Shown here: piece by piece, positions 14,788-32,000 of the stretch
How the letters are laid out: every line of letters starts with the position of its first letter
Numbering within the stretch: the stretch's first letter is position 1
DNA from: Vibrio alginolyticus NBRC 15630 = ATCC 17749
Lineage (GTDB): Bacteria > Pseudomonadota > Gammaproteobacteria > Enterobacterales > Vibrionaceae
Reading direction: 5' to 3'
Assembly (NCBI RefSeq): GCF_000354175.2
Contig: NC_022349.1
Span: 3,270,001-3,302,000, forward strand
Length of the DNA: 32,000 nucleotides
Position numbers and translations under genes: made by a program
Notes under the pieces: model-generated
Database searches by the model: none
Told to the model about the DNA's origin: nothing
Seen by the model: the letters and a program-made list of their open reading frames with translations, nothing else

Positions 14788-14798
14788 TTTATTCAAAA

Positions 14799-14972: not shown

Positions 14973-16196
14973 TTACATCTTTTTAAAGATGATGGAGGTG
15001 TTGATGCCGCCAAAGGCGAAGTTGTTACTCATCAAATATTTCACGTCCAGCTCTCGGCCTTGTCCGGCGATGTAGTCTAAATCACCACATTGCTCGTCGA
15101 GGTTTTTTAGGTTGAGCGTTGGGTTGAACCAGCCTGTGTGCATCATTTCTAAACCTAGCCACGCTTCAATCGCGCCACAGGCGCCTAGTGTGTGGCCAAA
15201 GTAGCTCTTGAGTGAACTGATTGGCACTTTGCCCAGAGCATTCGCTGTTGCGTTGCTTTCCGCAATATCGCCGCGGTCGGTGGCAGTGCCGTGAGCAGAT
15301 ACATAGTCGATCTTCTCAGAAGGAATGCCCGCGTTTTGCAAAGCCATTTCCATACAGATTTGCATGGTTTCCATCTGTGGTTGAGTGACGTGTGCGGCAT
15401 CACAGTTGCTGGCAAAACCGATGATTTCTGCATAGATTTTCGCGCCACGAGCGACGGCGTGTTCGTACTCTTCCAGAACTAGCGTTCCCGCACCTTCACC
15501 AATCACCAAACCATCGCGATCGGAGTCATAAGGTCTTGGTGTGCTTTTCGGGTCTTCATTCTTCAGACTGGTGGCAAAAAGGGTATCGAAGACCGCGGAT
15601 TCCGTTGGGCACAATTCTTCAGCGCCACCAGCAACCATGACCGTTTGGTAGCCGTGCTTGATCGCTTCGTAGGCGTAGCCGATTGCTTGGCTGCCAGAGG
15701 TACATGCACTGCTGGTTGGGATCACTCGGCCTTTCAAACCGAAAAATAGACCAACGTTCACTGCCGTGGTATGCGGCATCATTTGCACGTAAGTCGTTGC
15801 GGTGATCGCTTTGGTGGTTTTCTCATTCAGCATGACACCAAATGCACCGATTGCATCAGTACTGCCTGTTGATGAGCCGTATGCGATACCCGTTTGACCA
15901 TTGGTGAGTACGTCGTTACCAATCAAACCTGCTTGGCTTAGTGCGTTTTCTGTTGCGACGGTCGCCAATTTGGAAACACGCCCCATGCCGCGTACTTGCT
16001 TGCGCTTGTAGTGCTTTGGCAGTTCAAAATCTAAAATTGGTGCCGCGAGCTTGGTGTTCAAACCATCATACTGTTCGTAAGAAGGCATGTATTGCGTCGC
16101 GTTCTGGCAGTCACGCAGTTTTGGTTCGACAGATTGCCAATCGTTACCAAACGCAGTCACGCCTGACATTCCGGTTACAACAACTCGACGGCTCAT
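14973..16196 (-). CDS. apeR: Beta-ketoacyl-ACP synthase (FabB/FabF-like), APE cluster
   Basis: 407-aa ORF with the Cys-His-His triad motifs 'SSACTSGS', 'SAHGTATDRGD' and 'FGHTLGACG'. It is the last gene of the operon. ATGA overlap with apeQ (16193-16196). Confidence 0.88.
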   Translation of the reverse strand: MSRRVVVTGMSGVTAFGNDWQSVEPKLRDCQNATQYMPSYEQYDGLNTKLAAPILDFELPKHYKRKQVRGMGRVSKLATVATENALSQAGLIGNDVLTNGQTGIAYGSSTGSTDAIGAFGVMLNEKTTKAITATTYVQMMPHTTAVNVGLFFGLKGRVIPTSSACTSGSQAIGYAYEAIKHGYQTVMVAGGAEELCPTESAVFDTLFATSLKNEDPKSTPRPYDSDRDGLVIGEGAGTLVLEEYEHAVARGAKIYAEIIGFASNCDAAHVTQPQMETMQICMEMALQNAGIPSEKIDYVSAHGTATDRGDIAESNATANALGKVPISSLKSYFGHTLGACGAIEAWLGLEMMHTGWFNPTLNLKNLDEQCGDLDYIAGQGRELDVKYLMSNNFAFGGINTSIIFKKM

Positions 16197-16918
16197 ACTA
16201 GGCCTCCGTTTACCGAAATGACTTGGCGAGTTACATAGCCTGCGATGTCAGACATAAGGTAACTGACTAAACCAGCAACTTCTTCTGGCTCTCCCATGCG
16301 GCGCAAAGGAATTTGTGGCATCGCATGTTCTTTCACGTGTTCGTCTACCATGCCTGTGTCGATAAGTCCTGGAGCAACGCAGTTGACGGTGATTTTGCGT
16401 TTTGCCAGTTCAAGCGCGAGTGATTTTGTTGCACCAATTACGCCCGCTTTCGCTGCGCTGTAGTTAGTTTGACCACGATTCCCCATTAGGCCAGAGACTG
16501 ATGCAAGCGTAACAATTCGGCCGCCTTTGCGCTTTTGCACCATTGGCATAACACAAGGGTGAAGAACGTTGTAGAAGCTGTCTAAGTTGGTATGAATCAC
16601 ACCATCCCATTCTTCTTCGGTCATCGCAGGGAAAGCGGTATCTTTTGTGATGCCAGCGTTGTTCACGACGCCATAGTAAGCGCCGTGTTCGGCGATATCG
16701 GCTTCTAGCTTCTCACGACAATCTGCACGATCACTGATGTCGAATTGGATAAGACGACAGCTACCACCATGTTGTTCGATGGTGTCTAGGGTATTTTGTG
16801 CGCCTTGTTGATCGCCCATGTAATGGACGATGATTTGGAAACCATCTTTGGCTAATTGAACGGCAATGGCTTTACCGATGCCTTTGCTGGCACCTGTAAC
16901 GAGGACTTGTCGGGTCAT
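16193..16918 (-). CDS. apeQ: 3-oxoacyl-ACP reductase (SDR), APE cluster
   Basis: Start moved to ATG 16918 (ATGA overlap with the apeP stop). 'VLVTGASKGIGKAIA' (TGxxxGIG), 'NNAG' and 'YSAAKAG' (YxxxK) are present. Confidence 0.88.
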   Translation of the reverse strand: MTRQVLVTGASKGIGKAIAVQLAKDGFQIIVHYMGDQQGAQNTLDTIEQHGGSCRLIQFDISDRADCREKLEADIAEHGAYYGVVNNAGITKDTAFPAMTEEEWDGVIHTNLDSFYNVLHPCVMPMVQKRKGGRIVTLASVSGLMGNRGQTNYSAAKAGVIGATKSLALELAKRKITVNCVAPGLIDTGMVDEHVKEHAMPQIPLRRMGEPEEVAGLVSYLMSDIAGYVTRQVISVNGGLV

Positions 16919-17379
16919 TGTTGACTCCTGATTTTCATTTCTTGTAATTTTTCTTCTGATGGAACGTAAACGTTCAATTGGCAAGTCGCTACAACAGTTC
17001 CTTGTAGCTCAATACGGGCTGAAAAAACCGCCATACCGTTATCTTCCATAACTTTTTCAGCATACACATCGAGCACCTGTCCGCGAGAAAACGTATCGCA
17101 TTCAGACGTGTATCGACGGCTACCAAGCAAAAAGCCAATCGGTGGCGCTTGTTCTTTCATTAATGCGTGGTAACCAGACCACGCCGCGACAGATTGCGCC
17201 ATAAACTCAATGCCAACGTAAGCTGGCACAGTTTGAGAGGCCGAGTCGAAGAACGGATTGTGTTCTGCGATATCAACCTGGCAGTGAATCGTATCTTGTT
17301 GAACATCCAAGGCACGATCGACCAAAATCATTGGTTTGTCGTGTGGCAAAAGTTGTTCGATGGGAGGAAGTTTAGTCAT
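16915..17379 (-). CDS. apeP: FabA/FabZ-like hotdog dehydratase, APE cluster
   Basis: Start moved to ATG 17379 (8-nt overlap with the apeO stop), giving 'MTKLPPIEQLLPHDKPMILVDRAL', the typical N-terminus of APE/FabZ-like dehydratases. The ORF-track extension would overlap apeO by 100 nt. Confidence 0.8.
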   Translation of the reverse strand: MTKLPPIEQLLPHDKPMILVDRALDVQQDTIHCQVDIAEHNPFFDSASQTVPAYVGIEFMAQSVAAWSGYHALMKEQAPPIGFLLGSRRYTSECDTFSRGQVLDVYAEKVMEDNGMAVFSARIELQGTVVATCQLNVYVPSEEKLQEMKIRSQQ

Positions 17380-18559
17380 GAGCGTAACCAAAAATAAGAC
17401 TAATATTATTGCCACCAAAAGCAAAAGAGTTGCTGAGAATCGCTTTGTTACCCAGTTTGGTTGGCGTCTCAACTAACGATATATGGATATCGTCTGCTTT
17501 GGTTTCGCAGTGTTGTATTGGCAAATCAAGGTTGTACTTGAGAATATGCCAAGCGATCGCGGCTTCCGTTGCACTTGCAGCGCCTAATGTGTGTCCGGTA
17601 AGTGGCTTTGTAGAGCTCACAGGGACGGAGTCACCAAAGCAGCGGTGAATGGCTTTGCTTTCCATCGCATCGTTTAACGGCGTTGCTGTGCCATGCGCGT
17701 TGATGTAACCAATGTCTTGTGCTGTTAGTCCTGCATTGGCCAACGCTTTCTTCATCGCTTCTTCTGCGCCTAACCCTTCTGGATGTGGTGCGGAAATGTG
17801 GTGCGCGTCTGAGCTATCGCCAGCTCCGAGAAGAGCAACGGGCGCGGGTGTTTTGCTTAGCAACATTAATGCTGCGGCTTCGCCGATATTGATGCCGTTA
17901 CGATGTTGGTCAAACGGTTTACAAAGAGTATCGGATAGGGCTTCTAAACCGTTAAAGCCGTTTAGTGTGAGGCGACAAATGGTATCCACGCCACCCACAA
18001 TGACGGCATCAACAATGCCCGAGCGAATCAGGCGTTGCGCGGTTAAAAAGACACGACCACTAGAAGAACAGGCGGTTGAAACTGAGTAATGTGGGCCGCT
18101 CAAATCAAAGTAGGCGGCAATAAAATCGCTGCAGTTGCCAAGCTCTTGTTTGGTGTAATGGTAATCGGCAGGAAACTCGCCGTTTGCCAGCTTATCTCCA
18201 AACGCGATTTCGCCATCTGAAATGCCAGATGTGCTGGTGCCGATCACGACCGCGATACGGTCACGACCATATTTAGCAATGGCGTCACGCACGTCGCCTT
18301 CGATTTGCTGCAAAGCCGAAAGTGCGAGGCGGTTGTTTCTCGTATCAAACTGGCTGAGTGCGGGTGGTAATTGCGGTAACGCCTGTGCGATTCGACCGAT
18401 TACTGTTTGGCGGCCTGAATTTAAAATATCTTGGTCAACCACCATGTTGGATGGCTTCGCTCCTGATAAACACTGGTGGATGAGCGCATCATCTTGTCCC
18501 ATGGCAGAGTGAAAGCCACAGGCCTGAATATACAAAGGTTGAGAAGAGCGAATAGGCAT
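17372..18559 (-). CDS. apeO: Beta-ketoacyl-ACP synthase (KS partner of the CLF-like ApeC)
   Basis: 395-aa ORF with 'STACSSSG' (active Cys), 'NAHGTATPLND' and 'TGHTLGAAS'. Confidence 0.88.
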   Translation of the reverse strand: MPIRSSQPLYIQACGFHSAMGQDDALIHQCLSGAKPSNMVVDQDILNSGRQTVIGRIAQALPQLPPALSQFDTRNNRLALSALQQIEGDVRDAIAKYGRDRIAVVIGTSTSGISDGEIAFGDKLANGEFPADYHYTKQELGNCSDFIAAYFDLSGPHYSVSTACSSSGRVFLTAQRLIRSGIVDAVIVGGVDTICRLTLNGFNGLEALSDTLCKPFDQHRNGINIGEAAALMLLSKTPAPVALLGAGDSSDAHHISAPHPEGLGAEEAMKKALANAGLTAQDIGYINAHGTATPLNDAMESKAIHRCFGDSVPVSSTKPLTGHTLGAASATEAAIAWHILKYNLDLPIQHCETKADDIHISLVETPTKLGNKAILSNSFAFGGNNISLIFGYAHD

Positions 18560-18579
18560 ATTGTTATTCTAAATTGTTC

Positions 18580-19191
18580 TTAATTAATCTGATGTTGCAG
18601 TGTTTGAATAGAAATTGAAAACTGATGTTTGAGGTGGTGAAAATCAATCTTACCCTCTAATTTGTTAGAAGAACTGTATTGAATCTCAATGATCTTTTCA
18701 CCGTCGCTATCAAAGATGGCGCGAGAATTATTTTTATCAATCATTTGCCACCTTACCTCATTTAACGATCCTTCCCAAGCGGAACTCGGCCAGAGCGTGA
18801 TCATCAGGTTAAATAATACCTGTTCTGGCTGCGGTAGCGTACCTTGCAAACCGTTGAGTACTTCGGTTTGGATTTGTTCTCCATCGTAAGACAACGAGAG
18901 CACTCGCGTCCCCCAAGATGAGAAGCCTGCCAGTACCACTTCGTTGCTAGTCACTTGCAGTTGCACCGGAAGTTGCTCAGATGTGGGTTTGTCGTCAATT
19001 ACCCAAGAGGCCGTAATCAATTGGCTGGCCGTCAACTGATAGCCCAAGCTGGCTGGAGTCGGTAAGTTAACTTGGGTGTTCTCAGCAATATCGACTTGAG
19101 GTGTCGATTGGTGAGGTACCAAGCTGCATGCACTTAAAAACAGACTCAGTACGATTAACGTCGCGCAGCGAAAAGCATGGTTAAAAATCAT
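18580..19191 (-). CDS. apeN: Lipoprotein of APE clusters (DUF3261-like)
   Basis: 203-aa ORF with signal peptide and lipobox 'LSLFLSAC'. ATGA overlap with apeM (19188-19191). It sits between the exporter and KS genes, as in described APE clusters. Confidence 0.7.
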   Translation of the reverse strand: MIFNHAFRCATLIVLSLFLSACSLVPHQSTPQVDIAENTQVNLPTPASLGYQLTASQLITASWVIDDKPTSEQLPVQLQVTSNEVVLAGFSSWGTRVLSLSYDGEQIQTEVLNGLQGTLPQPEQVLFNLMITLWPSSAWEGSLNEVRWQMIDKNNSRAIFDSDGEKIIEIQYSSSNKLEGKIDFHHLKHQFSISIQTLQHQIN

Positions 19192-21530
19192 GACGTCGTT
19201 CCCTCTGTTTTAATCGCAATCGGAGAGAGCAGCCAAGCAACAAAAATACCACTTAACACCGTAATGCCGAAACTGTGAATCGCGTGAGTTTGGCTTAGTG
19301 ACAGCAACCCAAATGACAGCAGAGTGGTTATTGCCGAAAGGGTGATCGCCAATAGTGTGCTCACGCTGCGCGCTTTCTCGGCAAAGAAAAGAGTGTAATC
19401 GATCCCGATACCAAGAATGAGTACTAAGCCAAGCAAGTTGAACAGGTTTAATGTTGTTCCCATCGCGACAGCAGTTGCCAGACCGCACGCGCAAGCAATC
19501 AATGATGGCAGTAAAACTCGCCAACTGTGTTGCAGACCGTACCGCTTGATTAACACCAGAAAGATCACAGTACTGGCGGCTGCCAATAGCTCCATGATTT
19601 TGATTCGGTATTCACCAAATAGGGCGGAAATTTCTTCTGCTTTGTTTAGGTAGACAACGTCAGGCTGCGATTTGGCAAAAGACTTAACAACGGCGGAGTC
19701 TTGCAATTGGTTTAACACCACTACCGTTGCCGATTTTCCTTTAATTTTACCCAAATGGAGAAAACGCACAGGCGCTGATACTGGGTTTTGCAAGTACTGA
19801 TCAACCGTGACAGGGATAAAGTCGGCGTCCATTTTCGGCTTTTTATTTAAGCCCAGTCCGGATGCAAGTGGGCTGGATTGTGTTGCGTAAAGATCGCGAA
19901 TCAATTGATAGTCTTGTTGCTGACGTTCCACTGAGCTCAAGTAGCGGCTCAGACTCTGGTAGCTTTCGATGGTGCTGTCCGCTTTCCACGCTTCTAATGT
20001 TGGCGTCAAAGACTCCAGTTTTTTCATTAGGTTTTCGTCATCGTCGGCGGTAACGACCAACATTTGCTGCGAAGATTGCATGCCACTGAGCGTCGTAATC
20101 AAGGTTTCTTGCTGCTTGAGATCTTTCGGCATCGTTTGCAGCAGACGAATGTCGTCATCGTAGTTCAATTGCAGCAAGAAAAAGCCACTCGCAACCACAC
20201 ATAACATCGGTAATCCGACTTTAATTCGAGGTTGATTCCAAAGCGTTAACCATTTCGCCAACAGTGATTGTCCCGGTAAATTCGAAATGGAGCGCGATGG
20301 GTTACGAGCCAGTATCGGATACCAAGCCACCACGGTGATGTAAGCGGCAATCAGACCAATGGATGAAAACAGCGCAAGCTGCTGCAAACCAGGAAACGGT
20401 GCCACTAACATGCCCAAATAGCCGATCAAACTGGTGATTAAGCCAAGTGTGATCGCTATGAAAATATGCTTTAACCCTTGCTCGCTATCCCATTCATTTC
20501 CCGCCGCAAGGCGTTCGGTTAGGTAGTGGAATGCGTAGTCGATAGACACGCCGATTAAACTTGCGCCAAACACTAAGCTGAACAGATGGACTTTTCCAAA
20601 AATCCACGTCGTAACGGACAACGCAACGAGCAAACCAATGGTGATGGAAAGCAGTGCCAGAGACAGTGGCATCACACTACGAAAGACCAACACGAACAAT
20701 GCAATGATACCGAGCAGAGAGAACACACCTATGGTACTGATCTCCGATTTGGCACTTTGCGTACCAAAGTCGGCGTAAAATAGAACGCCAGTATGTGCCA
20801 CTTTAGCGCCATATTTCTGCGCGACGCTTTGCTCTAGCGCTTGAATGTCAGGGACGGCAAGCTGCCCAGTTAGGCTATAAGGCGAGTCTTTTAGCTCAGC
20901 AGTAATAAGCAAGTATTGAGCACCGTCTTTTTCGACGGACAGATAGCCGTTATCCAATCGGAAAGAGGACGATTGCTGGGTAACTTGGCTTAAATAATCA
21001 CGAAATAGCAAGAAAGGATCATTTTGTAACTCTTGCCCAGTCACTCCAGAAAAGGGGTTGTACAGAGATTGAATCACATGCTGCACTTGCTGTTCTGGAT
21101 TTTTGCTTAAACGCTCTCGTTGTTCAGGCGTCAGCAATTGGAAACGGTGCTTAAAGTAGTAACTCGCCCAAGTTTGCTGCTCTTGAGGTGAGATTTTTCC
21201 CACCACATCGCGAAAATGATTACTTTGTCGTAACCCCTTATCAAATTCAGTGGCCGCTGCAAAAAGGGCATTTTTGTCCGGCGCTGTGATCACGAAAATG
21301 ACTTTGTCGCTCATACTTGCCGAGACCGACTCAAAGGCTTGCTCAGCCACTGGGTTTTGTTGGTTCTTCGGCAACAGTTTTAAAATGTTGGTCTCAATCG
21401 GAGATTCTGCACTCCAAACCCACTGTTTGAGTAGCAACGCGCCCGCTAAAACAACGAGATTGAGCCAAACCAGAGCAAGGGTATGAGTGCCAAGACTGAG
21501 TTTAGAAACGGAATTGAGCGTCTTCGGCAT
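19188..21530 (-). CDS. apeM: MMPL/RND-superfamily membrane exporter, APE cluster
   Basis: 780-aa ORF. Two blocks of clustered hydrophobic helices are separated by large soluble loops, which is the duplicated MMPL architecture. Confidence 0.85.
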   Translation of the reverse strand: MPKTLNSVSKLSLGTHTLALVWLNLVVLAGALLLKQWVWSAESPIETNILKLLPKNQQNPVAEQAFESVSASMSDKVIFVITAPDKNALFAAATEFDKGLRQSNHFRDVVGKISPQEQQTWASYYFKHRFQLLTPEQRERLSKNPEQQVQHVIQSLYNPFSGVTGQELQNDPFLLFRDYLSQVTQQSSSFRLDNGYLSVEKDGAQYLLITAELKDSPYSLTGQLAVPDIQALEQSVAQKYGAKVAHTGVLFYADFGTQSAKSEISTIGVFSLLGIIALFVLVFRSVMPLSLALLSITIGLLVALSVTTWIFGKVHLFSLVFGASLIGVSIDYAFHYLTERLAAGNEWDSEQGLKHIFIAITLGLITSLIGYLGMLVAPFPGLQQLALFSSIGLIAAYITVVAWYPILARNPSRSISNLPGQSLLAKWLTLWNQPRIKVGLPMLCVVASGFFLLQLNYDDDIRLLQTMPKDLKQQETLITTLSGMQSSQQMLVVTADDDENLMKKLESLTPTLEAWKADSTIESYQSLSRYLSSVERQQQDYQLIRDLYATQSSPLASGLGLNKKPKMDADFIPVTVDQYLQNPVSAPVRFLHLGKIKGKSATVVVLNQLQDSAVVKSFAKSQPDVVYLNKAEEISALFGEYRIKIMELLAAASTVIFLVLIKRYGLQHSWRVLLPSLIACACGLATAVAMGTTLNLFNLLGLVLILGIGIDYTLFFAEKARSVSTLLAITLSAITTLLSFGLLSLSQTHAIHSFGITVLSGIFVAWLLSPIAIKTEGTTS

Positions 21531-22122
21531 CCGTGAGTTCCTGAGGTAGAGAGGTCTGGTTTGTAAACGTGATTTCGGTCTTATCGCCGCGCAGCTCTTG
21601 TAGGGTTAGGCGATCAATATGCGTTTTACCGGAAAGGGTGATGGCTTTAAACACCGCATTTAATGGTGACTGTTTGGGCACTAAAACGAGCTGCCACTGA
21701 TTGTTCTCAACTGAAAAATCGAGTGTGAATTGTTCTTGCAGTGCAGAAGTATCCCCGTGGAACACGGATAAAAACACATGACTAAAGTAGAACGCCATTG
21801 GGTTTTCTTGTGCAGAGATCGTTTTCGGTGCTTGGTCGGCAAAAGTTTGACGAAGTTTGTTTTCCGTCAATACCAAATTGACTGCGAAAGGTTCTGTTTG
21901 TTGCCACAACAAGCCATGTGTTTTGCTCAGTGTGAACTGACCTTTAGAGGTTAGAGGTTGACTGAACATTTCCAGATGACGCTGCTGCGTAAAATCTCCG
22001 CGCACGATTTCATGCTGAGACAACTGCTGTTGAAGCGACGCCAAATCTGTTACGTTTGCTGTCGGTGTGGCCAGTGCTGGAACAGAAAATATCAACAAAA
22101 AAGAGAGTAACCACTTTTGCAT
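21502..22122 (-). CDS. apeL: LolA-like outer-membrane lipoprotein carrier protein, APE cluster
   Basis: Start moved to ATG 22122 (TAATG junction with apeK), giving the signal peptide 'MQKWLLSFLLIFSVPALA'. 'GDFTQQRHLEMFSQPLTSKGQF' is LolA-like. Confidence 0.78.
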   Translation of the reverse strand: MQKWLLSFLLIFSVPALATPTANVTDLASLQQQLSQHEIVRGDFTQQRHLEMFSQPLTSKGQFTLSKTHGLLWQQTEPFAVNLVLTENKLRQTFADQAPKTISAQENPMAFYFSHVFLSVFHGDTSALQEQFTLDFSVENNQWQLVLVPKQSPLNAVFKAITLSGKTHIDRLTLQELRGDKTEITFTNQTSLPQELTDAEDAQFRF

Positions 22123-22568
22123 TAGTTCAGGCTCCCATGGTTGTGCCATTGCTCTACTTTATCTAAAAAAACTGCTGGAGAAACAAAGCACATCTCTTGC
22201 TTTTCAATGGATACAGCGACTTGCGTTGTATGCGCTTTGCACATACGTTGATTCGTTTCGGCGTCGTAAATCACGTAATCCACACGCAAGCGGTTTTCCC
22301 ACTCAGTGAGTTGCGCGGTAATACGAATGGTGTGATTAAACGGAATCGCCTTCACGTATTTAACGCGCGTATCGATGATCGGCCACATGTACCCAGAGTC
22401 TTGCATATCGCGATAGCTGTATTGAATCTTCTCCATCAGCACACGACGCGCTTCTTCAAAATACCGAAAGAAGTTGCCGTGATAAATCACGCCCATCGGG
22501 TCAGCATCTTGGAATGAGGTGACCATTGTCACCTCCGCTTCTAATGGGTAGAGAACCTGCTCTTGCAT
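22122..22568 (-). CDS. apeK: 4HBT/YbgC-type hotdog acyl thioesterase, APE cluster
   Basis: Start moved to ATG 22568 (GGAGG upstream, TAATG junction with the ammonia-lyase stop). 'DADPMGVIYHGNFFRYFEEAR' is the YbgC/4HBT signature. Confidence 0.82.
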   Translation of the reverse strand: MQEQVLYPLEAEVTMVTSFQDADPMGVIYHGNFFRYFEEARRVLMEKIQYSYRDMQDSGYMWPIIDTRVKYVKAIPFNHTIRITAQLTEWENRLRVDYVIYDAETNQRMCKAHTTQVAVSIEKQEMCFVSPAVFLDKVEQWHNHGSLN

Positions 22569-25820: not shown

Positions 25821-26172
25821 CCAGTTTCATTTTGCCTGAAGAGTGAGTCACCAAGGTTTCACCGTTTTTCGATGTGTACTTAAAGGTCAATTTCTCGCGC
25901 TCATTGTCCCAAGAGAGTGAGAGACAAACGTCGGCGTTTGGCAGAATCGGCTCTTGAAATTTGATGACTTCCATTCCTTTAAATACCTTGGGAGTGTTCA
26001 AATATTGAACGGCGTAGAACAACGCCCAATCAATTTGAGTGACGCCGGGTAAAAGAGGGAAGTGATTGAAATGACCTTGGAAATCTAAGATGTCAGCATC
26101 CACTCGCAGCGACAGCTCCGCGGTATGGTCACTCACTTCAATATTCTGAATAGTTGGTTTTCTTTTATCCAT
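25804..26172 (-). CDS. apeI: Hotdog dehydratase (partner of ApeP), APE cluster
   Basis: Start moved to ATG 26172 ('MDKRKPTIQNIEV'). 'FQGHFNHFPLLPGVTQIDWAL' is FabA/FabZ-like. Confidence 0.78.
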   Translation of the reverse strand: MDKRKPTIQNIEVSDHTAELSLRVDADILDFQGHFNHFPLLPGVTQIDWALFYAVQYLNTPKVFKGMEVIKFQEPILPNADVCLSLSWDNEREKLTFKYTSKNGETLVTHSSGKMKLGESRE

Positions 26173-26182
26173 GTTACTAGCT

Positions 26183-27583
26183 TTATTGGAATAGTTTTTC
26201 AATTTCAGCAACTTGGCGTTTGCCTTGGCTGTTCAATGGAATTTCGTCGACCACTCGGAATTTTCTCGGGATAGCGATCGGTTCTAGCCAATTGCGCAGT
26301 GCCTTGCGAAGCTCAAGCCAAAATTTGCCTTTACCAAGTTCATTAAGCACATCGCTGCCTTGATCGTTAAGTACGATGATCGAGACTAATGTGAGGCGAC
26401 CAGATTCTTCCATTGGGATCACCACGCTTTCTTGAATCCACGGCAATTGCTCTAAACGTTTTTCCACTTCGACAAGGGAAATACGCTTTTCTTCGACTTT
26501 GACGATTCGGTCAGTGCGTCCACGCAATTCAAAAGAAATGCTATCATGGAAATAGCATTCATCCGCAGTTTGGTACCAAGTGTTTTCATCAATGTGTGGC
26601 GAGCGGAGCTTTAAACAATTTTCATGGTTAAGCTCGGCTTCAACACCAGGGAATAACGTCCAGGGAGTGCTAGCTACGTGCTGCTGACGGTAAGCGATGC
26701 CGCCGGTTTCTGTGCTGCCAAACACTTCAATAGGAAGTGACCCAAACAACTCCTGGCTGTGCTGCGCCGCTTGGTTTGGCAAGGGGCCACCAGAAGAAAA
26801 TACACACCGAATCGCAACCGGATCGTGCTCTTCACTGAGTCGTTTTAGTAACGCAGGGCTGCTTACTAGCGTGGTGTCAGCGTCAGCGTGATGGACAATT
26901 TGCTCTGGGAACTCAAGGTTGTGTGCTGAAAATGGACGTGCGGAGCACAAAGGCCACAATACGCGGAACAGCAAGCCGTAAATGTGTTGATGAGAAACGG
27001 TGCTTTCAACGCGTGTGCTGGCAATCGTGTCGCCCCATAGGTTATCTAGAATAGCAACTTCGATATCGAGCTGTTTCAGCGTTTTTGCAATGGCTTTTGG
27101 TGTGCCGCTTGAACCCGAAGTAAATAGCGTTACTGGTATTTCTGCCAGGTTTAATTCACGCCAAAAATAAGGTTGTTTGGCCTCTGGCTCGCTAATCACG
27201 GTGGTTTCTAGCAATGATTGAGCTTCGATCAAAAGCGAGCTCACGAGTTCTGGAGCCGAGACATCGGCATCATGCAGCAACAAATCGTAGTGCTCACTGA
27301 GCTCTTTGAGTGCTTCTGGTTGGTAATTACCAGGTAATACAATGGATTTTCCTGCATAACAACAAGCAAAAAAGCCAACGGCAAACAGGTAGCTGTTGCC
27401 AAAACACAACGCAATGTTTTGCGTTGGTTGGGTTTCTAGCTGTTGAGTAAGTGTTGCGACGTGCTGTTGGAAATCACCCCACGTGATAACCGTATCGCGA
27501 TCGTAAGAGACTGGGGATTGCTCAGACCTCTCTGCGATGAACAAGGTCGCAAGGGAGGTAAAGCTCGAATACGTTGTATTCAT
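26183..27583 (-). CDS. apeH: AMP-dependent (adenylating) aryl-acid:ACP ligase, APE cluster
   Basis: Start moved to ATG 27583 (AGGA RBS, 4 nt after the apeG stop). Adenylation cores 'FTSGSSGTPK', 'FGSTETGG' and 'GRTDRIVKVEEKRISL' are present. Confidence 0.85.
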   Translation of the reverse strand: MNTTYSSFTSLATLFIAERSEQSPVSYDRDTVITWGDFQQHVATLTQQLETQPTQNIALCFGNSYLFAVGFFACCYAGKSIVLPGNYQPEALKELSEHYDLLLHDADVSAPELVSSLLIEAQSLLETTVISEPEAKQPYFWRELNLAEIPVTLFTSGSSGTPKAIAKTLKQLDIEVAILDNLWGDTIASTRVESTVSHQHIYGLLFRVLWPLCSARPFSAHNLEFPEQIVHHADADTTLVSSPALLKRLSEEHDPVAIRCVFSSGGPLPNQAAQHSQELFGSLPIEVFGSTETGGIAYRQQHVASTPWTLFPGVEAELNHENCLKLRSPHIDENTWYQTADECYFHDSISFELRGRTDRIVKVEEKRISLVEVEKRLEQLPWIQESVVIPMEESGRLTLVSIIVLNDQGSDVLNELGKGKFWLELRKALRNWLEPIAIPRKFRVVDEIPLNSQGKRQVAEIEKLFQ

Positions 27584-27587
27584 ACGA

Positions 27588-28148
27588 TTAGTGTTCCTTT
27601 CGAACAAATTGACGCACGATCCATTCTCCAGCGAACAAGCCACCAGCAAGTAAGTAGCTGATGAGGCCGTTATAAAGCGTCCATATTTTTACTGGTAGGA
27701 AACAGGTATAGAGTGCAACGGCAGCGTTGAGCGTAAAAAAGGCGCACCAAACCACCGTCACTTTGCGAGTGTAAGCCACGCCACTAGCCGGAAGGTCGGG
27801 TTCTTGCAAGCGAGCAAGCCTCTCTATGATCGATTGCGGCTGTTTTAAGCTCAGTCCAAATACACACAGCATACATAAATTGACAACGACAGGGTAAAAC
27901 TGAAGCCACCCGTGTTGTTTAAACACCATGCCAAGTGTAATTAGAACAATGCCAACAGCGCCCGTAGCGAGCGCCAAGAATTTAAACTCTTTTAGTGGGG
28001 TCTTATTTGCGACGAAAACACGCAAAAGTAACGCAGCAATTAACAAGCCCCCAACTAAGTTCAAGCCATATTTATCTATACCGAAATAGACGGCGAAGGG
28101 GTAGGCAAGCAGTACAATTGCAGACAGACCAGTCAGCAATTGGCGCAT
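27588..28148 (-). CDS. apeG: Polytopic inner-membrane protein of APE clusters
   Basis: 186-aa ORF that is hydrophobic throughout. TAATG junction with apeF (28146-28150). Its position matches apeG. Confidence 0.7.
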   Translation of the reverse strand: MRQLLTGLSAIVLLAYPFAVYFGIDKYGLNLVGGLLIAALLLRVFVANKTPLKEFKFLALATGAVGIVLITLGMVFKQHGWLQFYPVVVNLCMLCVFGLSLKQPQSIIERLARLQEPDLPASGVAYTRKVTVVWCAFFTLNAAVALYTCFLPVKIWTLYNGLISYLLAGGLFAGEWIVRQFVRKEH

Positions 28149-28405
28149 TAACTTTCCTTCAATAACTCAGTAACAGCGTTAACCACATCGTCAACGGTTC
28201 TTACTGCACTAAACTCTGCTGGCTTGATTTTTTTGCCAGTGACATTCTGTAGGTGTACGACCAAATCAACGGCGTCAATGCTATCAAGATCGAGATCTTG
28301 GTATAAGTGCGCATCTGATTGAATGTCGGCTGCGTCAATTTCGAACAGCTCAACAAGCGCATCTTTAACTTGTTCAAATACTTGATCTTTATTTACATCA
28401 GTCAT
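28148..28405 (-). CDS. apeF: Acyl carrier protein 2, APE cluster
   Basis: 85-aa acidic ORF with the phosphopantetheine site 'LDLDSIDAVDL'. Confidence 0.88.
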   Translation of the reverse strand: MTDVNKDQVFEQVKDALVELFEIDAADIQSDAHLYQDLDLDSIDAVDLVVHLQNVTGKKIKPAEFSAVRTVDDVVNAVTELLKES

Positions 28406-28420
28406 GAATATACCTACAAC

Positions 28421-28681
28421 TTATTCATTAGTTTGAGAAGAAACGTATTTCGCTAGATTTGCTACAGACGCAAAGTGTTCGCGCGTATTTGAGTCGTCGG
28501 CATCAATAACGATGTTGTATTGTTTTTTTATTGCGAGTCCAAGCTCAAGCGCGTCGATAGAATCTAAGCCAAGTCCATCACCAAAAAGTGGTGCATCCGT
28601 TTCAATATCATCTACGGTTAAATCTTCAAGGTTTAAAGCATCAATAATAAGTTGCTTAATGTCGTTGTGTAACTGTTCCAC
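28421..28681 (-). CDS. apeE: Acyl carrier protein 1, APE cluster
   Basis: 86-aa acidic ORF with a GTG start and the phosphopantetheine site 'LGLDSIDALEL'. Confidence 0.88.
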   Translation of the reverse strand: MEQLHNDIKQLIIDALNLEDLTVDDIETDAPLFGDGLGLDSIDALELGLAIKKQYNIVIDADDSNTREHFASVANLAKYVSSQTNE

Positions 28682-28694
28682 TGGGACCTGCTTA

Positions 28695-29462
28695 TTAATA
28701 AAAGTTTTCTGGAAAAATGTTTTCAGCTAGGTGCTGTTGTAAGCGTCGCGCCGCTATTGTCGGCGACGTAGTTTGCTTTATAAAGGGGGTAATCTCAACT
28801 TTATCCTTAACTTCAACCCTGAAAAAGGGCTTTGTTGCCGGTACTTGATACCATTTTTTCTCTTTTGTGAGGAAACTTGGCGTTACCGTAATATGGACAA
28901 CTCTTAAATCTCGTTCTGTTCTTACCGCAATTTGTGCTGCACCGCGTTGTAATTTCGGCTCTACACCTGGTGTTGTTCTTGTTCCTTCAGGAAATATAAG
29001 CAACACGTTGCCTTTGTTAAATCGTTCATCACAAAGTGCTAATAAATCATCCGGTGCTTCATTGGGAATATATCCGGCTGCTTTTACGATGTGCTTCATA
29101 AAAGGATTCGACCATATTGCCGATTTTACTAAACAGTCGCAGCGATTTAATTGTGAAGCAATGAGAACGTAATCGATTAAACTAGGGTGGTTGGCAACAA
29201 TTAAACAATTACGATCTTGTTGAAGAATATCGGCACCAATAATTTGATAATCGATTGCGCCACTCAACTTCATCAATTTACAAAATGTGTTGAATGAATA
29301 TCGAATCGCACCCTGAACTTTATATTCGCGTTCCGTTTGGTCTGAAACAAAAATACGAATGGTCGGAATAACAATGAAACTCAGTACTAAACCACCTAAC
29401 CCAAATACTGAAAAACAAAAGCCTGTTGCTAGCACACGCCAATACTGATTTAAGCGAGTCAT
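28695..29462 (-). CDS. apeD: PlsC/LPLAT-family (1-acyl-sn-glycerol-3-phosphate-type) acyltransferase, APE cluster
   Basis: Start moved to ATG 29462 (ATGA overlap with the apeC stop). N-terminal TM segment, HX4D 'NHPSLIDY' and 'FPEGTRT'. Confidence 0.85.
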   Translation of the reverse strand: MTRLNQYWRVLATGFCFSVFGLGGLVLSFIVIPTIRIFVSDQTEREYKVQGAIRYSFNTFCKLMKLSGAIDYQIIGADILQQDRNCLIVANHPSLIDYVLIASQLNRCDCLVKSAIWSNPFMKHIVKAAGYIPNEAPDDLLALCDERFNKGNVLLIFPEGTRTTPGVEPKLQRGAAQIAVRTERDLRVVHITVTPSFLTKEKKWYQVPATKPFFRVEVKDKVEITPFIKQTTSPTIAARRLQQHLAENIFPENFY

Positions 29463-30187
29463 TTTTTGTGCCATTCCCAAGCTTGTTGCGGAGCGAAAAT
29501 AGTCCACTGGCTTTTATCTAACAAGTATTGTTGCAAAAATACTAAACCTTGAGGAAGAGGATGACCGGAACGTTCTGCGTTTATGGAGCTTTGTATCGCG
29601 AACTTGTCTCCATGAGAAAGTATTAAGCCAAGTCCAAACCCTTGGTATTGTTGGTTTTCATATTCTAAATAAGAGTCAGGCATAGGCTCATCAAAATCAA
29701 CAAGCAGTACTTTTTTGTCAGGATTGTCGGACAAAAACAGCCATGCTTCTAATATTGCGCTTTGGAATGTGTTTTCTGCCGCAGCGATAGAAGTTAGGGG
29801 AATGGGTTGTTTAGTTGCGATAGTGGCAAGCCCTGCGGCGGTATTGTGCACCGATTGAGAAAAAGCCATCGGAGACGCCTCTTCTCCATTAATTATATCT
29901 TCAACTAGTGCGACGCTGCGATGCAGTTCACCATGACGGCTTGAAAATACAAGGTAATCAACTTGATGTTGATTAAGCATTTCGATTGCAGTTTGTACCG
30001 CCAGTTTACTGAGTGGGCTCATTCTTCTGCGCATCATCGCAGGAATATTTGCAACATTGATTTTGCCATCTTCTGGCCATTTTATCTCTGTTGCCCATTG
30101 TTTCCATTCATTGGATTCGGATAAACCGAATGAATTCGCTGTCCACGCATCAATATTGAACGAAATGTTGATCTTCGAGTTTGGCAT
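29459..30187 (-). CDS. apeC: Half-size KS-like protein (chain-length-factor-type partner of ApeO), APE cluster
   Basis: 242-aa ORF with thiolase-fold N-terminal-like sequence (RRMSPLSKLAVQTA...) but no active-site Cys motif ('FSQSVHNTAAG' instead). It is the first gene of the minus-strand operon. No obvious SD precedes the ATG. Confidence 0.78.
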   Translation of the reverse strand: MPNSKINISFNIDAWTANSFGLSESNEWKQWATEIKWPEDGKINVANIPAMMRRRMSPLSKLAVQTAIEMLNQHQVDYLVFSSRHGELHRSVALVEDIINGEEASPMAFSQSVHNTAAGLATIATKQPIPLTSIAAAENTFQSAILEAWLFLSDNPDKKVLLVDFDEPMPDSYLEYENQQYQGFGLGLILSHGDKFAIQSSINAERSGHPLPQGLVFLQQYLLDKSQWTIFAPQQAWEWHKK

Positions 30188-30221
30188 ATTGGGTTAAATT
30201 GTTTATTTTACAGCTCGATAC

Positions 30222-30242
30222 AAATTGGGGTTGACCCAAATT
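30222..30242. promoter_or_regulatory. Imperfect inverted repeat in the divergent ape promoter region (candidate operator)
   Basis: AAATTGGG-GTTGA-CCCAAATT, with 7 of 8 arm positions complementary. It lies in the 76-bp spacer between apeC (-) and the lipoprotein gene (+) and contains TTGACC. Confidence 0.3.
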
Positions 30243-30263
30243 CACAATAAAAAGGAAATTATC

Positions 30264-30662
30264 ATGTCGCGTTTTAAGCTGTATGTCTCGTTATTATTAA
30301 CTTTGCTTCTTGTTGGTTGTGGACGAGTACAACCTGTAATGAATGTGGAGGATACTCCAGTTGCTTATGATCTTCAAAATAAACAAGTAAAAATGGCCAT
30401 AGTGCAATCAGCAACTAACCGAGGCTGGACGATCGAAGAAGTAAGCCCTGGTGTTCTTATTGCAAAAATCCACGTTCGTAAACACTCTGCAGAAGTAAAA
30501 ATCCCATACAATAATAAATATTACTCAATTATTTATCTCAACTCAGTAAATCTCAAAGCAAGTGATGGCAAAATCCACCGCAATTACAATCGTTGGGTAA
30601 ACAACTTGAATGTTGATATTCAGCGAGCTATTGCATTGTTGGGCAATCAATCTCAACAATAA
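30264..30662 (+). CDS. Hypothetical lipoprotein, divergent from the ape operon
   Basis: Start moved to ATG 30264 (AAAAGGAAA RBS). Signal peptide and lipobox 'LLLTLLLVGC'. I recognise no family. Confidence 0.7.
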   Translation: MSRFKLYVSLLLTLLLVGCGRVQPVMNVEDTPVAYDLQNKQVKMAIVQSATNRGWTIEEVSPGVLIAKIHVRKHSAEVKIPYNNKYYSIIYLNSVNLKASDGKIHRNYNRWVNNLNVDIQRAIALLGNQSQQ

Positions 30663-30671
30663 AACTATTAA

Positions 30672-31757
30672 TTGCAGTTAGGTTTTTCCGTGTTAAATCA
30701 AAATAATGACCCTTTTAATGCTTTTGAAGCGAAGACAGAAGCTCAGAAGTTATCTTTTGCACCAATCGTGTTCCAGACCGCCAAAACGCTTCGAGATTTA
30801 GGTATTTTAGCCGTTTTAGACAGCGCTGGCGCTCAAGGCATGAGTGCCACAGATATTGCCGAGAAAACGGGAGTATCAGAATATGGTGTTAAAGTACTGT
30901 TGGATATGGCGATTAGTGCGCATATTGTTTTATGGGAACGACCTAACTATTCGCTTGCAAACCTTGGTTTTTACCTTCTTCATGATGGTATGACGAATGC
31001 AAACATGGATTTTACGGCAGATGTTTGTTACGCCGCGATGATGCATTTGACGGAAGCAATTCAAGAAGGTAAACCGTCAGGTTTGAAAGAGTTGGGCAAT
31101 TGGGAGACCATTTATCAAGGTCTATCGACGTTACCAGAACAAGCCAAACAGAGCTGGTTTAAGTTCGATCATTTCTATTCGGATCGCTCGTTCCCACTTC
31201 TGCTTAAAGAAGTATTTGCAAGCAAGCCAAAGCATCTTGTGGATATTGGCGGAAATACGGGAAAATGGGCGATTCAGTGTTGTAAACATGACCCTGACGT
31301 TCAAGTGACGATTGTTGATTTACCACAGCAATTAGAAGTAGCGATGAAGAATGTTTCAGAAAACCAGTTCGTCGAGCGTGTACGTCCATACCCTGCAAAC
31401 ATGCTGGATAAAGCACAAACATTGCCTGGACACGCTGACGTATGGTGGATGAGCCAGTTCTTGGATTGCTTTTCCCCAATTGAGATCCTCAATATCCTTA
31501 AAAAAGTTAAAGCCCAGTTAACGAAGGGAGATACTATTTACGTATTGGAGCTGTTTTGGGATGCTCAAAAATACGCGGGAGCTTCCTATAGCCTTAATGC
31601 CACTTCTCTTTATTTTACCTGTTTAGCTAACGGTAATAGTCGCTTTTATCGCAGTGATGATTTCTTAGAAATTGTCGAAGCGGCAGGTTTATCTGTCGTT
31701 GAAAGAACCGACAATATTGGCCTTGGTCATACCTTATTAAAACTACAAGCAAACTAA
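30672..31757 (+). CDS. apeB: SAM-dependent methyltransferase (class I, with N-terminal wHTH/dimerisation-like domain)
   Basis: 361-aa ORF with SAM motif I 'LVDIGGNTGKWA' and an acidic post-I 'VTIVDLP'. There is no in-frame ATG near the 5' end, so the start must be TTG 30672 or GTG 30690. Confidence 0.8.
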   Translation: MQLGFSVLNQNNDPFNAFEAKTEAQKLSFAPIVFQTAKTLRDLGILAVLDSAGAQGMSATDIAEKTGVSEYGVKVLLDMAISAHIVLWERPNYSLANLGFYLLHDGMTNANMDFTADVCYAAMMHLTEAIQEGKPSGLKELGNWETIYQGLSTLPEQAKQSWFKFDHFYSDRSFPLLLKEVFASKPKHLVDIGGNTGKWAIQCCKHDPDVQVTIVDLPQQLEVAMKNVSENQFVERVRPYPANMLDKAQTLPGHADVWWMSQFLDCFSPIEILNILKKVKAQLTKGDTIYVLELFWDAQKYAGASYSLNATSLYFTCLANGNSRFYRSDDFLEIVEAAGLSVVERTDNIGLGHTLLKLQAN

Positions 31758-31764
31758 ATTCAGA

Positions 31765-32000
31765 ATGAAAACAGAGCTCAAGCAAGTTGTTGTCGTAGGA
31801 GCGGGGCCATCAGGTTCAACCGTTTCTGCGTTATTAAAATCGCGTGGCATAGATGTTGTTGTCTTAGAAAAAGCGACTTTTCCACGCTTTTCCATAGGAG
31901 AAAGCCTGCTCCCTGCATGTATGGAAGTTGTTGAACAAGCAGGAATGACCAATGCAGTAAAGCAGTTTGGCTTCCAGTATAAAGATGGTGCTGCATTTCG
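31765..32000 (+). CDS. FAD-dependent oxidoreductase, flavin-dependent-halogenase-like (5' fragment, runs off window)
   Basis: My own translation from ATG 31765: MKTELKQVVVVGAGPSGSTVSALLKSRGIDVVVLEKATFPRFSIGESLLPACMEVVEQAGM... It has the GxGxxG dinucleotide fold followed by 'FPRxxIGESLLP', a block I associate with flavin-dependent halogenases and related monooxygenases. It is open to the window end. Confidence 0.7.
   Translation, partial: MKTELKQVVVVGAGPSGSTVSALLKSRGIDVVVLEKATFPRFSIGESLLPACMEVVEQAGMTNAVKQFGFQYKDGAAF

What the first reader, a model, noticed from the sequence alone, without database searches (positions are those of the whole stretch)
14973..32000. Aryl-polyene (APE) type II PKS-like pigment-lipid cluster: the accessory system of this window
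The minus strand from 30187 down to 14973 has no gap longer than 20 nt. In order it encodes a half-size KS-like CLF, a PlsC-type acyltransferase (HX4D, FPEGTRT), two ACPs (LDSIDA), a polytopic membrane protein, an adenylating enzyme (TSGSSGTPK) and a hotdog dehydratase. These are followed by a GT2::LpxL-like fusion, an MIO ammonia-lyase, a 4HBT thioesterase, a LolA-like protein, an MMPL exporter and a lipoprotein. The operon ends with a KS (Cys-His-His), a FabZ-like dehydratase (LPHDKPMILVD), an SDR ketoreductase and a second KS. This order and content match the apeC..apeR layout of characterised APE clusters in E. coli CFT073, Vibrio fischeri ES114 and Xenorhabdus doucetiae (Cimermancic 2014, Grammbitter 2019, Johnston 2021, cited from memory). 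The family itself is therefore described. This copy carries extra genes (ammonia-lyase, halogenase-like flavoenzyme) that predict a product different from the 4-hydroxybenzoate-primed E. coli/Xenorhabdus APEs. No malonyl transacylase, PPTase, regulator or chorismate-utilising gene is visible, and the cluster is truncated by the window end.
Basis: partly seen in the sequence, partly recalled or inferred. Interest (0 to 1): 0.7.

Follow-up and report, generated by a model that had tools for sequence, protein, structure and literature searches.

The report
Vibrio-type aryl polyene pigment cluster
This is the standard 20-gene cluster that vibrios use to make a yellow, membrane-anchored aryl polyene pigment lipid, matching gene for gene (15 of 20 genes checked) the Vibrio fischeri ES114 cluster that has been expressed heterologously, so it is real but ordinary.

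Summary
The minus strand from 30187 to 14973 is one tightly packed 17-gene operon. Three genes run the other way from 30264 and pass the window end.

The interpretation as an aryl polyene (APE) cluster is supported. Pfam ApeI-like, ApeP-like, Ketoacyl-synt_2 (CLF) and DUF3261 all score far above their cut-offs. All 18 E. coli ApeA–ApeR proteins have colinear orthologues here, at 29–70% identity.

The window is Vibrio diabolicus-like chromosome (99% identity). The far boundary, read from that genome, lies about 1 kb past the window end, where the halogenase-like gene is followed by an unrelated SLT-like gene.

The "extra" genes are not special to this copy:
- The ammonia-lyase sits in the same slot in all 80 Vibrionaceae loci fetched.
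- The halogenase-like gene is in 55 of those 80.
- Both are present in Aliivibrio fischeri ES114 (VF_0844 neighbourhood), whose cluster has been expressed heterologously.

Arylpolyene clusters are already reported in 81 of 151 Vibrio genomes.

The most likely mechanism, inferred and not shown, is a start from tyrosine-derived p-coumarate, as in flexirubin synthesis. ApeB would then methylate the ring, and a CndH-like halogenase might halogenate it.

Verdict: already known, low interest.

The parts
14931..14956 (-). Intrinsic-terminator-like hairpin just downstream of the apeR stop; likely end of the operon
   Evidence: 11-bp stem (6 GC pairs) followed by a T-run, 17 nt after the apeR stop
14973..16196 (-). 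apeR, stand-alone KS (Cys-His-His)
   Evidence: NF006587 751 bits against a cut-off of 470. 70% identical to E. coli ApeR.
16193..16984 (-). apeQ, ketoreductase FabG2 (likely start Met23 at 16918)
   Evidence: TIGR01831 FabG2 417.5 bits against 338.85. 66% identical to E. coli ApeQ.
16915..17472 (-). apeP, hotdog dehydratase (likely start Met32 at 17379)
   Evidence: Pfam PF22817 ApeP-like 101.6 bits against 27. LPHDKPMILVD motif.
17372..18559 (-). apeO, KS partner of the CLF
   Evidence: NF006618 556 bits against 407. 49% identical to E. coli ApeO.
18580..19191 (-). apeN, DUF3261 lipoprotein (LSAC lipobox)
   Evidence: PF11659 115.9 bits; sequence
19188..21530 (-). apeM, MMPL/RND-type exporter
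   Evidence: PF03176. 36% identical to E. coli ApeM over 770 aa.
21502..22149 (-). apeL, LolA-like periplasmic carrier
   Evidence: PF03548/PF19574. NF053544 flexirubin LolA2 E 8e-26, below its cut-off.
22122..22592 (-). apeK, 4HBT-fold thioesterase (likely start Met9 at 22568)
   Evidence: PF13279. 49% identical to E. coli ApeK.
22568..24121 (-). MIO-dependent aromatic ammonia-lyase, predicted tyrosine ammonia-lyase. Absent from the E. coli cluster.
   Evidence: PF00221 554 bits. ASG149, F89-H90 and HNQD are invariant in 80 loci. Best NCBIfam hit is BagA/FevW TAL, below its cut-off. No counterpart in the E. coli locus. Present in ES114.
24105..25820 (-). apeJ, GT2 :: LpxL-like acyltransferase fusion
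   Evidence: PF00535 + PF03279. 51% identical to E. coli ApeJ.
25804..26211 (-). apeI, hotdog dehydratase (likely start Met14 at 26172)
   Evidence: PF22818 ApeI-like 78.8 bits against 28.5
26183..27649 (-). apeH, adenylating aryl-acid:ACP ligase (likely start Met23 at 27583)
   Evidence: PF00501 + PF13193. TSGSSGTPK. 37% identical to E. coli ApeH.
27588..28148 (-). apeG, polytopic membrane protein
   Evidence: Weak IspA-like hit only. 47% identical to E. coli ApeG.
28148..28405 (-). apeF, ACP (elongation carrier by analogy)
   Evidence: NF003757 129.8 bits against 65. 65% identical to E. coli ApeF.
28421..28681 (-). apeE, ACP (starter carrier by analogy)
   Evidence: NF006617 90.8 bits against 70. 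63% identical to E. coli ApeE.
28695..29507 (-). apeD, PlsC/LPLAT-type acyltransferase
   Evidence: PF01553. HX4D and FPEGTRT.
29459..30187 (-). apeC, half-size KS-like chain length factor; first gene of the operon
   Evidence: PF13723 236.8 bits against 25. Orthologue of VF_0844, 53% identical.
30188..30263 (.). 76-nt divergent intergenic region between apeC and apeA
   Evidence: Sequence. One weak promoter-like match on the + strand, 30181-30209. No function shown.
30264..30662 (+). apeA, small lipoprotein (MSRFKLYVSLLLTLLLVGC lipobox)
   Evidence: 43% identical to the E. coli 'lipoprotein' that heads the ape locus; sequence
30672..31757 (+). apeB, SAM-dependent ring methyltransferase
   Evidence: PF00891 + dimerisation domain. 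NF053543 FlxJ family 480.8 bits, cut-off 560. 52% identical to E. coli ApeB.
31765..32000 (+). N-terminus of a flavin-dependent halogenase-like protein, 414 aa in the 99%-identical genome L001. Cut by the window end; it would end near coordinate 33010.
   Evidence: L001 1110-2354: PF04820 Trp_halogenase 80.8 bits. PDB 3NIX E 1e-109 and CndH 3E1T E 8e-37. Lys73 in 55/55 and WxWxIP in 51/51 orthologues.

Best explanation
This is the Vibrionaceae-type aryl polyene (APE) lipid gene cluster. It is orthologous to VF_0841-VF_0860 of Aliivibrio fischeri ES114 and sits in a Vibrio diabolicus-like chromosome.

**Proposed pathway (by analogy, not shown here)**
1. The MIO lyase deaminates L-tyrosine to p-coumarate.
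2. ApeH adenylates the aryl acid and loads it on the starter ACP ApeE.
3. The ApeO:ApeC KS-CLF pair and ApeR extend it with malonyl units. ApeF probably carries the malonyl units, loaded by the housekeeping FabD.
4. ApeQ reduces each beta-keto group and ApeI/ApeP dehydrate, building the conjugated polyene.
5. ApeB C-methylates the phenol ring. The CndH-like flavin halogenase may halogenate the carrier-bound aryl group.
6. ApeK releases the acid. ApeD and ApeJ attach it to a glycolipid anchor.
7. ApeG, ApeM, ApeL, ApeN and ApeA move the lipid to the outer membrane, where the polyene quenches reactive oxygen.

**Shown here:** gene content, order, family membership and orthology.

**Inferred:** every enzymatic step, the tyrosine/coumarate start and the halogenation.
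For: **Family models**
- APE-specific and APE-typical models score above their cut-offs: ApeI-like, ApeP-like, Ketoacyl-synt_2, DUF3261, FabG2, PRK09185 and PRK09116 KS, and both ACP models.

**Orthology**
- 18 of 18 E. coli Ape proteins are colinear with the window at 29-70% identity.
- The ES114 locus has the same order and the same extras, with TAL 82% and Hal 66% identical.
- The layout is the same in 78 of the 80 Vibrionaceae loci; L066 and L069 carry a reduced version.

**Operon structure**
- Genes are tightly coupled and a terminator follows apeR.

**TAL**
- The MIO triad is present.
- Gln occupies the position that is Glu in HALs and Gln in TAL/PAL (criterion quoted in PMC3992019; residue seen).
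- The nearest 50%-cluster relatives carry F-H or Y-H at the switch. PMC8773403 reports Tyr at the first switch position in the S. clavuligerus TAL.
- FlxA of the related flexirubin cluster is a proven TAL despite a non-canonical switch motif (PMC3992019).
- A. baumannii ApeH loads p-coumarate on ApeE in vitro (PMC12624758).

**Downstream steps**
- The anchor, export and antioxidant roles are taken from X. doucetiae and E. coli work (bioRxiv 10.1101/2020.12.19.423268; PMC8253772).
Against: - No enzyme of this cluster was assayed.
- The first switch residue is Phe, as in PALs, so a cinnamate product cannot be excluded from sequence.
- ApeH's best family hit (4-coumarate-CoA ligase TIGR02372, below cut-off) is shared by the 4-HBA-using E. 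coli type. It therefore says nothing about the starter.
- From memory, the published V. fischeri product is a methylated 4-hydroxyphenyl polyene without halogen. That leaves the halogenase without a known product.
- I could not read Cimermancic 2014.
Confidence: 0.9

Rival explanations
1. It is the same APE cluster, but the starter is 4-hydroxybenzoate from UbiC, as in E. coli and Xenorhabdus. The lyase would then serve another purpose, for example feeding a side product or salvaging coumarate.
For: ApeH is an orthologue of the 4-HBA-loading enzyme family (PMC8253772). ApeH family scores do not separate the two types.
Against: - The lyase is fixed in one slot inside the operon in 80 of 80 loci.
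- It is the most conserved protein of the cluster, with a median identity of 88%.
- It is kept even in the reduced clusters L066 and L069 that lost the lipid and export genes.
- ApeH is among the most diverged enzymes relative to E. coli, at 37% identity.
Confidence: 0.15
2. The lyase is a phenylalanine ammonia-lyase, because Phe sits at the selectivity switch. The 'halogenase-like' flavoenzyme would then actually hydroxylate the ring.
For: F89 aligns with the Phe of PALs at the RsTAL His89 position (PMC9002059).
Against: - The flavoenzyme keeps the halogenase Lys (55/55) and WxWxIP (51/51).
- It is missing from about 20 loci with full coverage of that flank that keep the same lyase.
- His90 matches the His of the tyrosine-specific SgTAM.
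- Switch motif 1 is not predictive in FlxA (PMC3992019).
Confidence: 0.07
3. It is not a pigment cluster but a second fatty-acid, lipid A or PUFA synthesis locus.
For: The KS, KR, DH and ACP proteins also hit FabF, FabG, FabZ and AcpP models.
Against: - Those hits fall below the curated cut-offs, while the APE-associated models pass.
- The CLF, aryl-acid ligase, MIO lyase, DUF3261, LolA-like and MMPL set is colinear with the E. coli and V. fischeri ape loci, whose pigment production is reported in PMC8253772.
Confidence: 0.01

Closest known systems
Aliivibrio (Vibrio) fischeri ES114 APE cluster, VF_0841-VF_0860 (APE_Vf; Cimermancic et al. 2014, cited via PMC8253772)
   Same: - Gene order and orientation are identical for the 15 window genes that could be matched in L082.
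- That includes the divergent MT/halogenase-like arm (an unrecognisable small ORF sits in the apeA slot) and the lyase between apeJ and apeK.
- The TAL motif LHLTRFHGCG and the Hal motif WYWLIP are identical.
   Different: - Identity is 46-82% per protein.
- Chromosomal neighbours differ: yecM/argS in ES114, folD/tRNA-Arg here.
- The small apeA-slot ORF is not recognisably similar.
E. coli ape locus (ApeA-ApeR), as annotated in strain Z1323HEC0423 (L081). The CFT073 version is functionally dissected in PMC8253772; the X. doucetiae version was reconstituted in vitro.
   Same: All 18 proteins have colinear orthologues with the same domain families.
   Different: - E. coli has no ammonia-lyase and no halogenase-like gene.
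- apeA and apeB are co-directional with the rest in E. coli and divergent here.
- The acpT PPTase follows apeR in E. coli and is absent here.
- The reported starter there is 4-hydroxybenzoate.
Flexirubin cluster of Chitinophaga pinensis / Flavobacterium johnsoniae (PMC3992019)
   Same: An APE-type polyene machinery with a cluster-encoded TAL (FlxA) that supplies 4-coumarate. NCBIfam flexirubin models FlxJ, FlxB, LolA2 and FlxA are among the hits.
   Different: All flexirubin-specific models score below their cut-offs. There is no DarA/DarB dialkylresorcinol module. The organism is a gammaproteobacterium, not a member of Bacteroidota.
Xanthomonadin cluster (Xanthomonas, Lysobacter)
   Same: An aryl polyene with head-group tailoring. 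Halogenation is the precedent for a halogenase in an APE cluster (PMC8253772).
   Different: No chorismate-derived 3-HBA/4-HBA supply gene is present here, and the gene order differs (from memory; not compared here).

Membership tests
Aryl polyene (APE) biosynthetic gene cluster | KS plus half-size chain length factor pair (ApeO + ApeC) | tested here: met
   PF13723 236.8 bits for ApeC. NF006618 556 bits against 407 for ApeO.
Aryl polyene (APE) biosynthetic gene cluster | Second stand-alone KS (ApeR) and FabG2-type KR (ApeQ) | tested here: met
   NF006587 751 bits against 470. TIGR01831 417.5 bits against 338.85.
Aryl polyene (APE) biosynthetic gene cluster | ApeI/ApeP dehydratase pair | tested here: met
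   PF22818 78.8 bits against 28.5. PF22817 101.6 bits against 27.
Aryl polyene (APE) biosynthetic gene cluster | Tandem dedicated ACPs (ApeE, ApeF) and an adenylating aryl-acid ligase (ApeH) | tested here: met
   NF006617 and NF003757 score above their cut-offs. AMP-binding domains are present. The substrate of ApeH was not tested.
Aryl polyene (APE) biosynthetic gene cluster | Lipid attachment and export set: LPLAT, GT2-LpxL fusion, LolA-like, MMPL, DUF3261 | tested here: met
Aryl polyene (APE) biosynthetic gene cluster | Colinearity with experimentally characterised clusters | tested here: met
   E. coli 18/18. A. fischeri ES114 15/15 window genes matched within the fetched stretch.
Aryl polyene (APE) biosynthetic gene cluster | Produces a membrane-bound yellow aryl polyene (about 400-450 nm) | not testable with these tools
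   Needs extraction and HPLC-UV/MS.
Tyrosine ammonia-lyase (MIO enzymes) | Ala-Ser-Gly MIO triad | tested here: met
   GASGDLTP is invariant in 80 loci.
Tyrosine ammonia-lyase (MIO enzymes) | Motif 2: Gln (TAL/PAL) rather than Glu (HAL) | tested here: met
   STECHNQDKVSMG. Criterion from PMC3992019. The column assignment rests on my alignment of the NQD/QED motif from memory of HAL and PAL sequences.
Tyrosine ammonia-lyase (MIO enzymes) | Motif 1: His at the RsTAL His89 switch position | tested here: not met
   Phe89-His90 is found here. FlxA and Tyr-type actinobacterial TALs also fail this test yet are TALs (PMC3992019, PMC8773403), so the feature is not decisive.
Tyrosine ammonia-lyase (MIO enzymes) | Preference for L-tyrosine in vitro | not testable with these tools
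   Enzyme assay needed.
Flavin-dependent halogenase | GxGxxG, catalytic Lys and WxWxIP | tested here: met
   GAGPSG is present. Lys73 aligns with the Lys of CndH 'FPIKRGGTF' and is found in 55/55 orthologues. WYWLIP/WFWLIP is found in 51/51.
Flavin-dependent halogenase | Halogenating activity on the APE head group | not testable with these tools
   No halogenated Vibrio APE is known to me.
Flexirubin cluster | DarA/DarB dialkylresorcinol module, and flexirubin equivalog models passing their cut-offs | tested here: not met
   FlxA 364.7/700, FlxB 280/340, FlxJ 480.8/560 and LolA2 90.7/125 all fall below cut-off. DarB gives only a weak KS-level hit, E 2e-6.

The most novel reading that the evidence does not exclude
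Vibrionaceae APEs may be primed by an unusual Phe-His-switch MIO lyase and then ring-halogenated on the carrier protein by the CndH-like enzyme. In seawater the halogen would probably be bromine. Marine vibrios would then carry xanthomonadin-like halogenated aryl polyene lipids that heterologous expression in E. coli did not reveal. The halogenase would be an optional tailoring module, present in about two thirds of lineages.
Probability: 0.2. Interest if true: 0.4.

Novelty: already known. Interest (0 to 1): 0.15.

Why it matters
APE lipids protect Gram-negative bacteria from oxidative stress and promote biofilm formation (PMC8253772). The cluster is therefore a plausible fitness factor for a Vibrio living on hosts or at vents. 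For this window, the main gain is a clean annotation with a defined far boundary.

Two small questions remain open:
- What is the real substrate of the Phe-His-type lyase? It is the most conserved protein of the cluster.
- What does the halogenase-like enzyme do?

Neither would change how the family is understood.

Tried and rejected
1. **ApeH family hits as a clue to the starter.** Its best NCBIfam hit is 4-coumarate-CoA ligase (TIGR02372), but E. coli ApeH gives the same best hit with a similar score. The clue is not discriminating.
2. **Reading lyase specificity from the Watts switch.** The F-H pair matches none of the canonical pairs H-L, F-L or S-H. The literature says the motif fails for FlxA (PMC3992019). 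Left open.
3. **Reading Cimermancic 2014.** Look-ups by PMC id, DOI and PubMed id all failed. The APE_Vf structure is therefore cited from memory only.
4. **Finding ES114 through the lyase.** Two protein searches listed only Vibrio and Photobacterium hits. The faster-evolving ApeC query found VF_0844.
5. **Rfam scan of the window.** It found only the tRNA. No riboswitch or sRNA is associated with the cluster.
6. **Promoter scan.** It gave fewer matches than the shuffled sequences (12 against 23.8). No promoter claim is made.
7. **Flexirubin and xanthomonadin membership.** Considered and rejected (see the membership table).

Full report
**What is in the sequence**

On the minus strand, from 30187 down to 14973, lie 17 genes:

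| Order | Gene | Product |
|---|---|---|
| 1 | apeC | half-size KS-like chain length factor (PF13723, 236.8 bits) |
| 2 | apeD | PlsC-type acyltransferase |
| 3-4 | apeE, apeF | two ACPs |
| 5 | apeG | membrane protein |
| 6 | apeH | adenylating enzyme |
| 7 | apeI | ApeI-like dehydratase (PF22818) |
| 8 | apeJ | GT2::LpxL-like fusion |
| 9 | TAL | MIO aromatic ammonia-lyase (PF00221, 554 bits) |
| 10 | apeK | 4HBT thioesterase |
| 11 | apeL | LolA-like protein |
| 12 | apeM | MMPL exporter |
| 13 | apeN | DUF3261 lipoprotein |
| 14 | apeO | KS |
| 15 | apeP | ApeP-like dehydratase (PF22817) |
| 16 | apeQ | FabG2 ketoreductase (TIGR01831, above cut-off) |
| 17 | apeR | second KS (NF006587, above cut-off) |

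- Junctions overlap or are at most 20 nt apart.
- A strong terminator-like hairpin follows apeR at 14956-14931.
- Divergently, after a 76-nt spacer, come three genes: a small lipoprotein (30264-30662), an O-methyltransferase-fold protein (30672-31757), and the first 78 residues of a flavoprotein starting at 31765.

**Origin and far boundary**

- A scan of one genome per species found a 99%-identical locus in Vibrio diabolicus (L001). It also found 79 further loci at 83-93% lyase identity, nearly all in named Vibrio, Photobacterium or Aliivibrio genomes.
- The left 14.5 kb of the window is housekeeping: yoaA, tsaB, slp, fadD, rnd, minE, minD and folD. A tRNA-Arg(TCT) lies at 14711-14787.
- In L001 the flavoprotein is 414 aa. 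It is followed by an SLT-like gene unrelated to the pathway.
- The cluster therefore ends about 1 kb beyond the window. It has 20 genes.

**Test against characterised clusters**

- *E. coli.* A distant DNA search hit the E. coli ape locus. tblastn then showed that all 18 E. coli proteins, lipoprotein through KS (ApeA-ApeR), have colinear orthologues in the window at 29-70% identity. Only the lyase and the flavoprotein lack a partner. E. coli has acpT after apeR; the window does not.
- *A. fischeri ES114.* A search with the fast-evolving CLF returned 'VF_0844 [Aliivibrio fischeri ES114]'. Fetching that locus showed the same architecture:
  - Trp_halogenase-like (410 aa), methyltransferase and a small ORF lie divergent from the CLF.
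  - Then come the acyltransferase, two ACPs, the membrane protein, the AMP-binding enzyme, ApeI-like, GT2+LpxL, Lyase_aromatic (511 aa), 4HBT, LolA and MMPL.
  - Identities to the window run from 46% to 82%. The lyase motif LHLTRFHGCG and the flavoprotein motif WYWLIP are identical.
- PMC8253772 states that heterologous expression of the ES114 cluster showed it contains all genes needed for APE synthesis.

**Distribution**

- In the 80 loci the lyase is always present. The whole apeC-apeR set is present in 78; L066 and L069 carry a reduced version, and a few others are cut by contig ends. The halogenase-like gene is present in 55.
- About 20 loci with full coverage of that flank lack the halogenase-like gene, among them the V. 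mediterranei group and many Photobacterium. It is therefore an optional tailoring gene.
- An antiSMASH survey reports arylpolyene clusters in 81 of 151 Vibrio genomes (PMC11247349). V. parahaemolyticus genome papers list them routinely (PMC13065059).

**The lyase**

- It has the MIO triad (ASG149).
- It has Gln in the NQD motif where HALs have Glu; that criterion is quoted in PMC3992019.
- At the Watts selectivity switch it has an unusual Phe89-His90 pair.
- No NCBIfam equivalog passes its cut-off. The best is BagA/FevW TAL, followed by HAL and FlxA.
- In an exhaustive search of 50%-identity representatives, the nearest families (40-65% identity) mostly carry F-H or Y-H, followed by GCG. PMC8773403 reports Tyr at the first switch position in the S. 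clavuligerus TAL, a true TAL.
- FlxA of the flexirubin cluster has a HAL-like switch yet prefers tyrosine about 1000-fold. Its authors conclude that specificity cannot be read from sequence (PMC3992019).
- The lyase is the most conserved protein of the cluster, with a median identity of 88% against 50-57% for ApeN, ApeC, ApeH, ApeM and ApeL.
- It is retained in the reduced clusters of two Photobacterium species.
- A. baumannii ApeH can load p-coumarate on ApeE (PMC12624758).
- Taken together, I infer, but have not shown, that tyrosine-derived p-coumarate is the starter.

**The flavoprotein**

- It scores 80.8 bits on the Pfam Trp_halogenase model.
- Its closest solved structures are 3NIX, an uncharacterised flavoprotein (E 1e-109), then the carrier-protein-dependent halogenases CndH, PltA and Bmp2-like enzymes.
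- Lys73 aligns with the Lys in CndH's FPIKRGGTF and is invariant in 55 orthologues. WxWxIP is kept in all 51 full-length copies.
- It therefore looks like a working halogenase. From memory, however, the published V. fischeri product is not halogenated. This is the one loose end.

**Mechanism**

The rest of the pathway is taken by homology from E. coli, X. doucetiae and A. baumannii work:
- ApeH loads ApeE.
- ApeO:ApeC and ApeR condense.
- ApeQ reduces.
- ApeI/ApeP dehydrate.
- ApeB methylates.
- ApeK releases.
- ApeD and ApeJ attach the polyene to a GalNAc-phosphoglycerol lipid.
- ApeG, ApeL, ApeM, ApeN and ApeA export it.

Sources: PMC8253772, bioRxiv 10.1101/2020.12.19.423268 and PMC12624758. 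None of this was tested here.

**Verdict**

It is an orthologue of an already characterised and widely annotated cluster. I rate it 'already known' with low interest. A modest residual question concerns the lyase's substrate and the halogenase's product.

Noticed in passing
L066 6779-14526 and L069 (Photobacterium lutimaris, P. makurazakiensis): A reduced cluster: apeC-apeE-apeH-apeI-TAL-(apeK)-apeO-apeP-apeQ. It lacks apeD, F, G, J, L, M, N and R. In L066 two ABC exporters and an OEP outer-membrane channel flank it on the opposite strand. It may make a free or differently exported aryl polyene.
   Followed up: partly
window 14711-14787 (+): tRNA-Arg(TCT) with its own promoter-like site (14669-14696) and terminator-like hairpin (14796-14830). 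It sits between folD and the end of the APE operon. folD is the neighbour only in the three Harveyi-clade loci; ES114 has yecM/argS instead. The cluster therefore sits in different chromosomal contexts in different lineages.
   Followed up: partly
window 22568-24121 (-) and 80 loci: The lyase is the slowest-evolving protein of the cluster, with a median identity of 88% across Vibrionaceae. It evolves more slowly than either KS. Its LTRFHGCG switch region is invariant.
   Followed up: yes
L001 1110-2354 (-); PDB 3NIX: The halogenase-like protein matches the structural-genomics entry 3NIX ('flavoprotein/dehydrogenase') over its full length with E 1e-109. A solved structure of this APE-associated halogenase family therefore already exists, without an assigned function.
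   Followed up: no
representatives P0147 (2535 aa), P0149 (975 aa), P0256 (924 aa): Some relatives of the lyase are domains inside much larger proteins, with the lyase domain internal or C-terminal. These are possibly fusions with PKS/NRPS-type modules.
   Followed up: no
literature: PMC12943865: A 2026 paper on a V. alginolyticus-like strain shows a block of ORFs labelled VF_0841 to VF_0860 and attributes it to surfactin. Those labels are the V. fischeri APE cluster tags, so the attribution looks mistaken.
   Followed up: no
window 30000-31000: GC content drops to 0.39-0.41 over apeC, apeA, the start of apeB and the divergent spacer. Over most of the operon it is 0.46-0.52.
   Followed up: no
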